DNA of 64,000 nucleotides, taken from NCBI GenBank assembly GCA_964016885.1, contig OZ024753.1, forward strand, positions 23,002,001 to 23,066,000, in the 5' to 3' direction. Each line of letters opens with the position of its first letter. Position 1 is the first letter of the stretch. A program made the translations under genes and the position numbers. Under the pieces are notes generated by a model. The model worked only from the letters and a program-made list of their open reading frames with translations, made no database searches and had not been told where the DNA came from. This document shows positions 20,023-63,868 of this stretch, one piece after another. Source of the stretch: Eledone cirrhosa (lineage: Eukaryota).

Positions 20023-20772
20023 TATTACTGAGGACCTATTTAGTTTTTATAGAGAATATTAGGAGGGAGGGGTGAAGTTGTTAGAAGAATAGTTGAAGGA
20101 GTGGTTTTTCGATAGCAGTGAGAATTCTTGGTGGCAGTGAGTAATTAGATTCCATCTGTTGTTTTGACATTTTTTATGGAATATATTATTGGTTATTTTT
20201 CTAAATCTATAGAAGGATTAGAGATAGTAAAGATATGCGTGGTTGGTTTTGTGTTTGCACTTAACATTCAGACTTAAATTTTTCTTTCAAGTGTACTTAT
20301 TCTTTCACCCACGCATTCACACACAAATATATTTGCACACCTCTACAAAATACATATACTCACAATTCACATATTCATACTTACATATATATACACATGC
20401 ATACACATATATATACACACATGTATTCATGTACATACATACGCGCTCATGTGTATACATTTTCATACTCAACTTATCTTTATATATACACACGTATAGA
20501 CACACACATATATACATACATACTCTAGTCCATGTGTACACACATACGCATACATACACATCCACATACACATACATACATACACATATATATATACATA
20601 TATACATACACATATATATATATATATATATATATATACATGTAAAGTTATATTTAAAATTGTTGGGTTACAACTAGTAAATATTTATAACTGATATAAA
20701 AGCACTCGACAAATACTTGGAGTATATTTACAATATTAAATAAATGGAAAACTATATTTATAAAACCATATC

Positions 20773-20838
20773 TATTTCATTATATATATTTCGGGGATAT
20801 CATATTAACAATATGCTATGCCTTCATCAGACAAAATA
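20773..20838 (-). ncRNA. Minimal hammerhead ribozyme (PLE-c, inverted copy)
   Basis: Reverse complement of 20980-21045. Confidence 0.7.
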
Positions 20839-20979
20839 CAATATAAGCAGTTTTATAGATAAATATATTCGACATACCGTAATAAACATCAACTTCATTT
20901 GAAGAGTGAACCTCTTCAAATGAAGTTGATGTTTATTACGGTATGTCGAATATATTTATCTATAAAACTGTTTATATTG

Positions 20980-21045
20980 TATTTTGTCTGATGAAGGCAT
21001 AGCATATTGTTAATATGATATCCCCGAAATATATATAATGAAATA
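20980..21045 (+). ncRNA. Minimal hammerhead ribozyme (PLE-c)
   Basis: UAUUUUGU CUGAUGA aggcauag CAUAUU guu AAUAUG auaucccc GAAA UAUAUA UA AUGAAAUA. Confidence 0.7.
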
Positions 21046-21430
21046 GATATGGTTTTATAAATATAGTTTTCCATTTATTTAATATTGTATATATATATAT
21101 ATATATACATATACCCACACACACACATATACACATACACACATATATATATATATATATAAGCACTTTAATACATGAATACACTTACATCTAACTATAC
21201 ACATCAAACATATATATATATTTACTTATTTATATACATTTTCACATATATATACATACTTATGGACGTTTTTAGACACATTCATTATCGCATATTTGTA
21301 CCTATTCTCATCAGCATATCTTTTCATTATTAGTATGGTAATTTAAGGTTATTAATATATGTTGAGAAGAGATTGTTTTTATATTTTTCTAACTAGATTA
21401 AGGTTTATATAGTTGGGGGATGTCCCTCTT

Positions 21431-61928: not shown

Positions 61929-62134
61929 TTTAGAAGCGTATGCTGAATTAGTTGCTCAACTGTATAGGAGATTAATAAAATTTCAGGTTATCAATAATGT
62001 AGTGATAATATATCGTTACGTTAGAGATGAACAGCGTACGTGCAGGTTTGCTCAACGAGTATAAATTATATTCCGGAGAAATGTAGAAAGGATGAATATA
62101 AAATGAAAGTGCTTTTGTTAAAAAAGGAATTTAT

Positions 62135-62256
62135 TAGGTATTGACATATGTTTCTGTAACAGACCGAATACCTATGTATCGCTGCTTGCGTAATCATATA
62201 ATGTTAGCAAGTATTCGATAGCAAATGTATAATCAGTTGTCACTTCTTCAGAGATT
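62135..62256 (-). ncRNA. Hammerhead-like motif (PLE-f upstream pLTR)
   Basis: Direct copy of 59020-59141 at offset 3115. Confidence 0.6.
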
Positions 62257-63024
62257 TTGGATAAACTGGATAAAATCAGAAAAGTTGAAGTATTTATATT
62301 AGTAAAAGAGGAAGGAACAGAGGGGATAGAATATGACAGATGGTAAAATAATTTACTGCTAAACAAGTATATAATGGGTTTTTAATGAGAATACCATGAG
62401 TAAATCTAAATAAGAATTTTGGGGGTGCCGATTTTAATCTCTACTTGACCAACTGGACAGTGGACAGGGCTGGTCATTTGGTGCAGTAGTATTAATCATA
62501 AAGTGTCAATTGGGGAAGGGGGAGATTTCGATTGCTACTAAATAACATCAATGCTAGTGGTCAGCTGGTATTTGCTCTAGGGAATTGAATCAAAAAATCA
62601 GAAATCTCATTTTATCTATAGCAGTTTGTATTAAAAGGTAAATAATAGAAGAGTTGATAGAATTAAGACTAATAAAGAATGTTCATATCTATTTTGACAA
62701 TCAAACGGGGATAGAGGCAGGCGTTCAATTCTGGTAGTATTTATAATACAACTGATTATACATTTGCTATCGAATACTTGCTAACATTATATGATTACGC
62801 AAGCAGCGATACATAGGTATTCGGTCTGTTACAGAAACATATGTCAATACCTAATAAATTCCTTTTTTAACAAAAGCACTTTCATTTTATATTCATCCTT
62901 TCTAAATATATATATATATATATAAATATATATAAATATATATATATATATAAATATATATAAATATATATATATATATATATATATATATATATATATA
63001 AATATATATATATATATATATATA

Positions 63025-63868
63025 TCATAACTCATGTCTATAGTATTAATCAGATATTAAAATATATACTATTTCTTCTTCTAATCAGCATAATCAACCA
63101 TATACATAATCAAATCCAGCAAGCTTTAAGAATAAATTTTCTAACGGGGAAATCTCCGACACATAACTGACCGCAGCTAGTTCGCGTTAACTCCGTTCAC
63201 CATTTATCAAACACTTCGGCAGCATGCAGAATCCGATCTAGCAGCATGCTTACCCGCCGTAAGCGACCAATCACACGCTTTCTCTCTGGCTGTTACACAG
63301 CTACATAGCGATCTTAGCCATTTTTTAATCTAAATTTGGCGCGGTCTGTCTGAGAAATTAAATGTCTATTTCTGAGTTTGTCTCCTGAAGATTCCTGACT
63401 CAAAGCATATCCATATTATTTGGATGTCCTAAACTAGGAAGAAACCATGGTAGAGATATAATTACGGTATGTGCGCATTTCTTCTAAGTTTAATTTTACT
63501 ACTAATTACGTGCGGTTGACGGTGTATTTGACCGGATTCTGCATGCTGCCGAAGTGTTTGATAAATGGGGACCGGAGTTAACGCGAACTAGCTGCGGTCA
63601 GTTATTTGTCGGAGATTTCCCCGTTAGAAAATTTATTCTTAAAGCTTGCTAGATTTGATTATGTATATGGTTGATTATGCTGATTAGAAGAAGAAATAGT
63701 ATATATTTTAATATCTGATTAATTCTATAGACATGAGTTATGATATAATGCTCTGATTTTTTTATTTTAATTTATTAATTCTTCATTGAGCTTAAAAGTG
63801 AACAGTTGCAACACATATATATATCCTTGATTTAATTTAATTTAATTTTATGTATGTGATAACCTCTA
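63025..63868 (+). mobile_element. PLE-g: non-coding hammerhead-bearing element with a ~214-bp inverted repeat
   Basis: 63025-63238 is the reverse complement of 63530-63743; hammerhead in the spacer; unique sequence continues to 63868, then (TA)n. Confidence 0.65.
63379..63458 (+). ncRNA. Type-I hammerhead ribozyme (PLE-g)
   Basis: UGUCUC CUGAAGA UUCCUG...AUAUCCA..UGGAUGU...UAGGAA GAAA CCAUGG UA GAGAUA. Confidence 0.85.

What the first reader, a model, noticed from the sequence alone, without database searches (positions are those of the whole stretch)
20642..63868. Repeated insertion geometry: two pieces joined head-to-head with 3' ends facing out into (TA)n
Seen: a minus-strand piece on the left abuts a plus-strand piece of the same family on the right. 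Junctions are at 20906/20912 (c), 21876/21877 (b), ~22954 (d), ~24680 (c, right end lost in the gap), 36840/36841 (e), ~46655 (e), 62748 (f) and 63238 (g). Established: PLEs often carry an inverted upstream pLTR. Inference: the consistency over six families suggests both DNA ends at a cut in self-complementary (TA)n prime separate reverse transcripts, which are then joined at their 5'-truncated ends.
Basis: partly seen in the sequence, partly recalled or inferred. Interest (0 to 1): 0.7.

Follow-up and report, generated by a model that had tools for sequence, protein, structure and literature searches.

The report
Twin hairpins mark retrotransposon's two ends
These are jumping genes of a known animal family (Penelope-like, Hydra group) whose back-to-back insertions mostly end just before one of two matching predicted RNA hairpins, which likely are the two places where copying starts and would explain a long-noted but unexplained insertion shape.

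Summary
The head-to-head junctions are real (all 8, within a few bases), but the shape is published for Penelope-like elements (PLEs), and 'both 3' ends in (TA)n' fails or is unverifiable for 3 of 8. The ORFs carry every Hydra-clade protein mark. Not found in print by my searches: two tandem hairpins (GCUC-Y...R-UN-GAGC) lie upstream of the ORF. They covary (68/72 paired, 39.5 in shuffles), and element 3' ends stop 3-10 nt before one or the other (6/6 tail-less ends here; 13/19 ends in related loci, 2.9 expected). Each of the 5 fully readable insertions has one end at hairpin 1 and one a 91-138-nt tail further on; in one the arms do not overlap, which excludes fold-back there. Best reading: both cut DNA ends prime separate cDNAs, one per hairpin, joined through 1-4 nt microhomology (inferred, 0.6). 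Two tight palindromic junctions fit snap-back better. Family e forms a 28-kb palindrome, possibly a read-through RNA copied twice (about 0.5). Public contigs confirmed the tailed end of family f but did not list the tail-less one.

The parts
16861..17771 (+). family b pLTR piece whose 3' side meets the ORF copy tail-to-tail at 17771/17772 (exception to the pattern)
   Evidence: its end is 18 nt before hairpin 2, not 3-10
17772..19720 (-). family b ORF (RT, frameshift between 19129 and 19051), cut at the CxCX5C linker
19728..19747 (-). b hairpin 2
19820..19862 (-). b hairpin 1; the tail-less b end (22708) maps 4 nt before it
19765..21875 (-). b upstream partial copy: EN remnant (21431-21875), 3' UTR with hammerhead core at 20017, interrupted by insertion c1 in its internal (TA)n
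20642..20906 (-). c1 tailed arm (265 nt), contains hairpin 1 at 20702-20723
20912..21087 (+). c1 tail-less arm (176 nt); 5-nt spacer at the junction
21874..22708 (+). b tail-less inverted arm, hammerhead core at 22557
22911..22955 (-). d1 tailed arm, about 45 nt, shorter than the tail
22952..23117 (+). d1 tail-less arm; covers element sequence wholly upstream of the tailed arm (no overlap)
24636..24682 (-). c2 tailed arm, about 45 nt with a short duplication
24676..25924 (+). c2 right piece: Hydra-type EN and 3' UTR running into the gap; family not shown to be c
26125..27305 (+). d2, tailed; 5' side in the gap; hairpin 1 at 27223-27249
28650..30145 (+). d3, tailed, with EN remnant and a 20-nt inverted mini-arm (4-nt loop) at its 5' end; hairpin 1 at 30063-30089
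30305..46656 (-). left, tail-less arm of the 28-kb e palindrome (16.35 kb): e1 3' UTR and ORF (34403-36840), inverted e1 piece (36841-38120), TA, e2 with ORF (42253-44695) and upstream pLTR; e2 hairpin 2 at 44723-44840
46656..58358 (+). right, tailed arm of the e palindrome (11.7 kb), mirror of 41914 to 30305 plus a 138-nt tail holding hairpin 1 (58229-58311)
58381..58420 (+). solo d tail fragment (40 nt) in (TA)n
58860..62748 (-). f tailed arm: pLTR, open ORF 59610-61928 (RT plus C-terminal EN), upstream pLTR; hairpin 2 at 61952-61971, hairpin 1 at 62048-62079
62748..62904 (+). f tail-less inverted arm (157 nt)
63021..63238 (-). g tail-less arm
63239..63867 (+). g tailed arm; hammerhead-like core near 63385, hairpin 1 at 63750-63793; no ORF in the window

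Best explanation
These are Hydra-clade Penelope-like retrotransposon insertions whose outer 3' ends mostly stop just before one of two tandem predicted RNA hairpins, likely because both DNA ends of the cut prime separate reverse transcripts, one at each hairpin, which are then likely joined at their truncated ends. Shown: the clade marks, the head-to-head shape, the two motifs and their covariation, the end positions, one tail-less and one tailed end per readable insertion, and 1-4 nt overlaps at the joins. Inferred: the element protein (probably two copies) binds hairpins 1 and 2 of a transcript that runs past the pLTR into the next 5' UTR; its GIY-YIG domains cut both strands of (TA)n; each RT starts 3-10 nt upstream of its hairpin, so the stretch between the two starts is the tail; the two cDNAs grow towards each other, stop independently and are joined by microhomology, sometimes with a short templated duplication. 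One RNA with both sites occupied explains the fixed pairing of ends best. Some junctions (c1, d3) likely involve snap-back of a cDNA end instead.
For: Motif: at least two YGAGCA in the 200 nt before the ORF in 25 of 43 related loci, shuffle mean 0.09, maximum 3. Covariation with a 2-nt bulge: 68/72, 43/71 and 31/44 Watson-Crick pairs against 39.5, 21.0 and 11.4 in shuffles; bulges of 0, 1 and 3 nt give nothing. All 9 window motifs examined fit. Ends: 6 of 6 tail-less ends lie 3-10 nt before hairpin 1 (chance 0.04-0.055 each), and the 2 tailed ends with a known 5' UTR (e, f) lie 6 and 4 nt before hairpin 2. In related loci 13 of 19 ends lie within -4 to +10 nt of a motif, 2.87 expected. Published Hydra consensi show the same: Hydra-1_Ajap begins with both hairpins, two others end shortly after one. 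Pairing: 5 of 5 readable insertions have one end of each kind (0.5^5 = 0.03 if ends were chosen independently, my arithmetic), as does L028. d1 arms do not overlap. Contigs of X3 and X4 (one sample) show another head-to-head join onto a tail stub at 62635, and (TA)n-joined ends at 61975 in 6, 10 and 1 contigs of X3, X4 and X1. In vitro a Poseidon-clade PLE cuts and extends both strands and starts RT at two internal sites that bound its tail, with a predicted dimer (PMC11167929).
Against: No (TA)n-joined end at the tail-less site 62084 is among the loose ends listed for X1, X3 or X4 (294 rows were not shown, and reads like human DNA are filtered out). PMC11167929 found no difference in RT start between the two strands, so the fixed pairing is not predicted by that assay. 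c1 and d3 have 5-nt and 4-nt loops, unlikely under independent truncation. The inverted arms of L049 and L063 end inside the ORF, away from any hairpin. 6 of 19 related ends missed the motif in the script, and one counted hit (L021) is probably an assembly overlap. The b end at 17771 is tail-to-tail and 18 nt from hairpin 2. The shuffles ignore shared descent of the loci. Each family gives only one tail-less end in the window. A nuclease that trims an intermediate next to the same motifs would leave the same ends.
Confidence: 0.6

Rival explanations
1. One cDNA is made, its 3' end folds back and copies itself (or an antisense RNA self-primes), and the endonuclease resolves the hairpin next to the motifs, read as DNA sites, which leaves the tail at one end.
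For: Tight palindromic junctions at c1 and d3; the tail-less arm lies wholly within the tailed arm in c1, f, g and b; self-priming on an antisense template is the published proposal (PMC3846280); 'EN-mediated resolution' is the published guess for the tail (PMC8557442).
Against: Cannot make d1 (non-overlapping arms) or the e palindrome (the longer arm lacks the tail, and the tail differs from the e2 tails at 4-5 sites). The bulged stem covaries like a single-strand structure. RT starts bound the tail in vitro.
Confidence: 0.2
2. Both DNA ends prime, but on two separate RNAs, each subunit choosing hairpin 1 or 2 on its own (closest to the first reader's view); the mixed pairs here are chance.
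For: Overlapping arms are easiest to make from two RNAs, since no RNase H motif was looked for or is known in PLEs (recalled); no strand difference in RT start in vitro; related loci use both sites about equally.
Against: 5 of 5 readable insertions plus L028 are mixed. Very short tailed arms (d1, c2, the 62635 join, the solo fragment) suggest that the first RT is blocked by a complex at hairpin 1 on the same RNA (inference).
Confidence: 0.15
3. For the 28-kb e palindrome only: it arose by DNA repair between the arms of an older e1 insertion after e2 inserted into it (or is an assembly fold-back), not from a 16-kb read-through RNA.
For: The three e2 3' copies differ equally (0.18-0.24%), as if made at one time; pre-existing inverted arms would offer homology on both sides of a break; no reads were laid on this stretch.
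Against: Divergence is even along the arms: outer 3/1269, inner 21/9501 (P = 0.76), while the inner inverted piece is further from its source (5/878 to 9/907; whole arm against 6/909, P = 0.026; outer only, P = 0.18). Substitutions in unique sequence and the one-sided tail argue against a simple read chimera.
Confidence: 0.45

Closest known systems
Hydra clade of Penelope-like elements (Craig et al. 2021, PMC8557442)
   Same: Single ORF with RT and C-terminal GIY-YIG-type EN; RWK, DKT, CxCX5C, CxxC and CxH motifs; (TA)n targets; partial tandems, inverted 5'-truncated copy, tail at one end only.
   Different: Tails here are 91-138 nt, not 30-40; family e has a 4-kb 3' UTR; the paired hairpins and their link to the two ends are not mentioned in its main text or supplement text, although its consensi contain them.
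Poseidon PAc of Anolis in vitro (Frangieh et al. 2024, PMC11167929)
   Same: Both target strands cut and extended; RT starts inside the RNA at two adjacent sites that bound the tail; a binding region lies downstream of the starts.
   Different: There the starts lie in an AC-rich stem-loop inside the ORF and no strand asymmetry was seen; here they lie before two copies of one bulged hairpin in the 5' UTR. The two of four parts that I read give no model for the inverted copy.
Penelope elements of Adineta vaga (Arkhipova et al. 2013, PMC3846280)
   Same: Head-to-head is the most frequent inverted arrangement; palindromes at the inverted junction; optional tail; long captured stretches moved between pLTRs.
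   Different: Explained there by self-priming on an antisense template; d1 and the e palindrome do not fit that.
LINE-1 twin priming (PMC2837659, seen as search listing only; details recalled)
   Same: Second target strand primes a second cDNA, giving an inverted piece joined head-to-head by microhomology.
   Different: In LINE-1 the second primer anneals at scattered internal sites and the arms barely overlap (recalled); here the second start is mostly fixed by a hairpin about 90-140 nt from the first, and arms overlap by up to 11.7 kb.
Terminons (giant Athena-type PLEs; recalled, listing only)
   Same: Multi-kilobase, multi-ORF PLE units.
   Different: Terminons are telomere-attached and mostly lack a fused EN (recalled); the e palindrome is an internal, EN-positive, two-subfamily mirror structure.

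Membership tests
Penelope-like elements | Telomerase-related reverse transcriptase | tested here: met
   Model of f (mean pLDDT 84.7); 7 of the 8 best Foldseek matches are telomerase RTs, best E 8.2e-10. Pfam and PDB sequence search gave nothing.
Penelope-like elements | pLTR from partial tandem, inverted 5'-truncated copy, tail at one end | tested here: met
   against the description
Hydra clade | C-terminal EN with CxCX5C linker, CxxC and CxH motifs | tested here: met
   b, e1, e2 and f all carry them. The GIY-YIG identity rests on motif position; no fold search of that domain alone was run.
Hydra clade | RWK motif and DKT in place of DKG | tested here: met
   RWK in b and f, RWR in e; ADKT or SDKT in all; published Hydra proteins look alike by eye
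Hydra clade | Insertion into (TA)n | tested here: met
   (TA)n-joined ends in public contigs
Hydra clade | Hammerhead ribozyme near the 3' end | tested here: inconclusive
   Cores with stem II in b and d, relaxed cores in c and g, degenerate in f, none clear in e; Rfam listed no hammerhead (150 of 356 rows shown; none in 16 loci)
Hydra clade | Placement in the clade on an RT tree | not tested
Hydra clade | Membership of families c, d and g, which have no full ORF here | tested here: inconclusive
   They share the hairpin and hammerhead-like cores; d has a weak EN remnant (E 5.7e-4); g and c1 have no coding sequence in the window
Naiad clade | N-terminal EN | tested here: not met
   EN motifs follow the RT in b, e and f
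LINE-1 twin priming | Second primer anneals at scattered internal sites; arms nearly non-overlapping | tested here: not met
   6 of 6 tail-less ends at one motif; arms overlap in c1, b, e, f, g; only L049, L063 and d3 have internal outer ends

The most novel reading that the evidence does not exclude
Hydra-clade PLEs carry a duplicated bulged hairpin that docks two protein subunits on one RNA, fixes two RT start sites and assigns one to each DNA end of a double-strand cut. The head-to-head inverted pLTR and the one-sided tail of PLEs are then the direct product of programmed two-ended reverse transcription, which can copy a 16-kb read-through RNA of two nested elements into a 28-kb palindrome.
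Probability: 0.4. Interest if true: 0.8.

Novelty: new variant of a known kind. Interest (0 to 1): 0.6.

Why it matters
How PLEs, the closest mobile relatives of telomerase, make their inverted repeats and one-sided tail is named as open in PMC8557442. A short, covarying RNA motif that predicts both end positions turns this into a direct test: mutate hairpin 1 or 2 and see which start and which DNA end is lost. Family f has an open ORF with both hairpins. The motif also gives a rule for annotating Hydra element boundaries in repeat-rich invertebrate genomes, and two-ended copying of read-through RNA would be a source of very large palindromes.

Tried and rejected
No genome held, so no genome-wide count. 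Pfam found nothing in 7 PLE protein pieces, nor did a PDB sequence search. Rfam gave only repeat-driven microRNA matches below threshold in the window and two tRNAs in 16 loci. Viral contigs held no relative. Earlier findings of the scan: none. Raw reads of X8 seemed to show sharp ends at 61979, 62067, 62128 and 62265 and a head-to-head joint at 62066/62255; 8 of the 12 places checked lie on AATT or CATG sites, so I treat the run as restriction-fragment ends and ligation chimeras and use none of it. Summed contig depth is not a copy number and was not used. The opposite-strand joint 59876/60497 in X3 has no stated orientation and was not counted. A multiple alignment of the 3' ends aligned b with f only. 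Assigning the c2 right piece to family c failed. I first took the elements for Naiads; domain order rejects that. No complex prediction was run: the dimer is taken as a prediction for another clade. Literature searches for a two-ended model or the hairpins found none; most subscription papers and figures could not be seen, and the supplement of PMC11167929 gave little text, so its figures S1-S2 may bear on the start-site structure.

Full report
What the window is. It is AT-rich eukaryotic DNA in which long (TA)n tracts hold a cluster of retroelements. No genome is held for it. Families b, e1, e2 and f encode an RT followed by an endonuclease-like domain. Pfam does not name them, but a model of f (pLDDT 84.7) matches telomerase RTs best (7 of the top 8). 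All four carry the marks that PMC8557442 gives for the Hydra clade of Penelope-like elements: RWK or RWR, DKT, CxCX5C, CxxC and CxH, with (TA)n targets. No tree was built. Hammerhead cores are clear in b and d, relaxed in c and g, doubtful in e and f.

The observation. All 8 junctions exist within a few bases of the stated places and are head-to-head. Overlaps where both donors are readable are 2 nt (b), 4 nt (d1), 1 nt (e2) and 1 nt (f); c1 has a 5-nt spacer, c2 a duplication of about 13 nt. Both outer ends sit in (TA)n at true element ends in 5 of 8. In b the TA at 21088 is internal to b's 3' UTR and was the target of c1; b runs on to a tail-to-tail junction at 17771/17772. The right piece at 36841 stops in an internal TA tract, most simply because e2 later inserted there (inference). 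The right piece of c2 is not shown to be family c. A ninth head-to-head case (d3) and a solo tail fragment were missed. Among 76 related loci (the scan covered about 45 of 64 parts and kept the best 80 of 354 matches), 9 show an own-family inverted piece, all head-to-head, none tail-to-tail (by eye; these are short-read contigs and may be mosaics).

What is already known. An inverted 5'-truncated copy beside the upstream pLTR and a tail at one end only are standard PLE features (PMC8557442, passages and sections 11 and 15 read). Head-to-head is called the most frequent arrangement, with self-priming on an antisense template proposed (PMC3846280, passages and discussion read). A purified Poseidon-clade protein cuts and extends both target strands and starts RT at two internal sites that bound the tail (PMC11167929, parts 1 and 2 of 4 read). 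So the shape itself is not new.

In each of the 5 insertions whose two ends can be read (c1, d1, the e palindrome, f, g) one arm stops short and the other carries a tail of 91, 92, 138, 109 and 120 nt. L028 shows the same pairing. The tail-less ends of b and f fall at homologous positions although their ORFs are only 73% alike.

The hairpins. Upstream of the ORF the related loci hold two copies of one motif, mostly 50-80 nt apart: at least two YGAGCA in 25 of 43 loci with enough upstream sequence, against a shuffle mean of 0.09. The motif reads GCUC-Y...R-UN-GAGC-NC. With a 2-nt bulge the three pairs inside the outer stem are Watson-Crick in 68/72, 43/71 and 31/44 distinct instances (shuffles 39.5, 21.0, 11.4; C-G 48 and U-A 20 at the first pair), and bulges of 0, 1 or 3 nt give no signal. 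The shuffles ignore common descent, and the outer stem hardly varies. All 9 window motifs examined fit, with longer loops in e and g and an A-U closing pair in c, d and e. All 6 tail-less ends lie 3-10 nt before hairpin 1 (d was measured against two references), each with a chance of 0.04-0.055; the tailed ends of e and f lie 6 and 4 nt before hairpin 2; the tail-to-tail end of b misses (18 nt). I noticed the motif first in b and f, so the related loci are the independent test: 13 of 19 ends within -4 to +10 nt, 2.87 expected (L021 is probably an assembly overlap, L020 and L034 were missed by the pattern, L017 and L042 end about 63 nt earlier). Published Hydra consensi contain the motif at their ends, but the paper's text does not mention hairpins, Rfam has no match, and my searches found no description.

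Mechanism. Shown: the shape, the motif, the end positions, the pairing and the short overlaps. Inferred: the transcript runs past the pLTR over both hairpins; two protein copies bind them; both strands of (TA)n are cut; each DNA end primes a cDNA just upstream of one hairpin; the cDNAs stop independently and are joined. d1 is the key case: its 45-nt tailed arm and 166-nt tail-less arm cover different parts of the element, so neither is a fold-back copy of the other. Very short tailed arms recur (c2, the solo fragment, a join onto a tail stub at 62635 in contigs of X3 and X4), as expected if the first RT is often blocked by the complex ahead of it. Against: c1 and d3 are tight palindromes that suit snap-back; two related loci have inverted arms ending inside the ORF; the in vitro assay saw no strand difference in start site; and public contigs listed the (TA)n-joined tailed end of f (6, 10 and 1 contigs) but not the tail-less one (294 rows hidden). 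The raw reads of X8 were set aside because their ends follow restriction sites. A nuclease trimming next to the same motifs would leave the same ends. I put the two-ended, hairpin-set model at 0.6.

The e palindrome. Bases 30305-41914 are mirrored at 46656-58224, including e2's 3' part, a TA tract, an inverted e1 piece, the 36840/36841 junction and all of e1. The arms differ at 25 of 10770 clean columns, evenly (outer 3/1269 without one end-effect site, inner 21/9501). The left arm is tail-less and the right is tailed, with a tail that differs from the e2 tails at 4-5 sites. The inner inverted piece is further from its source (0.57-0.99%) than the arms are from each other (P = 0.026 for the whole arm, 0.18 for the outer part). 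This favours one event over the full length, most simply a read-through RNA of at least 16 kb copied from both ends (about 0.5). Arm-to-arm DNA repair remains close behind, since the three e2 copies are equally divergent, and no reads were laid on this stretch.

Verdict. The geometry is real and known; the elements are new members of the Hydra clade. The paired hairpins that predict both ends, the fixed pairing of ends and the non-overlapping arms were not found in print and make an open question about PLE insertion directly testable. Interest 0.6.

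Noticed in passing
window 17771/17772: Tail-to-tail junction in family b: a plus-strand pLTR piece joined to the ORF copy cut at the CxCX5C linker, about 55 nt from where the upstream partial copy begins; perhaps a second insertion with a target deletion, unexplained.
   Followed up: partly
window 36838-36841: The e1 arm is 5'-truncated exactly at the start codon of its ORF.
   Followed up: no
window 30305-34402 and 38122-42252: Family e has a 4-kb 3' UTR made largely of degenerate TA/TG microsatellite, itself a target for later insertions; b's 3' UTR TA tract likewise holds c1.
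   Followed up: partly
window 9740-14892, 16121-16949, 22706-24634, 27305-28652: Very long (TA)n tracts punctuated every 14-22 nt by AA or TT; the punctuation changes strand at about 14300 and between tracts, which may record directional repeat addition or a sequencing pattern.
   Followed up: no
window 1780-5185: L1/Tx1-like LINE with endonuclease and RT frames broken by stops (Pfam RVT_1), ending near the TA at 5453.
   Followed up: no
window 14893-16120: 5'-truncated LINE RT piece (Pfam RVT_1) lying between two TA tracts.
   Followed up: no
window 7998-8458: 74-bp tandem repeat, 6.2 copies, 96% alike.
   Followed up: no
window 14055-14322: 270-bp unique island between TA tracts, no match elsewhere in the window.
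   Followed up: no
window 52043-54157 and 59610-61928: Asn/Thr/Lys-rich low-confidence inserts between thumb and EN regions of e and f (f residues 480-514 and 590-627), like the N-rich inserts described in PMC3846280.
   Followed up: no
L017:277-456 and L042:79-238: 3' ends about 63 nt upstream of hairpin 1, near a third weaker GCTC/GAGT-like motif; possibly a third start site.
   Followed up: no
L015:2933-2956: Two different Hydra-like elements (66% alike) inserted tail-to-tail into one TA tract; its hairpin 2 is nearly identical in sequence to hairpin 1 of family d.
   Followed up: no
L049:2966-3038 and 4096-4168: Two tRNA-like sequences in inverted orientation downstream of the element.
   Followed up: no
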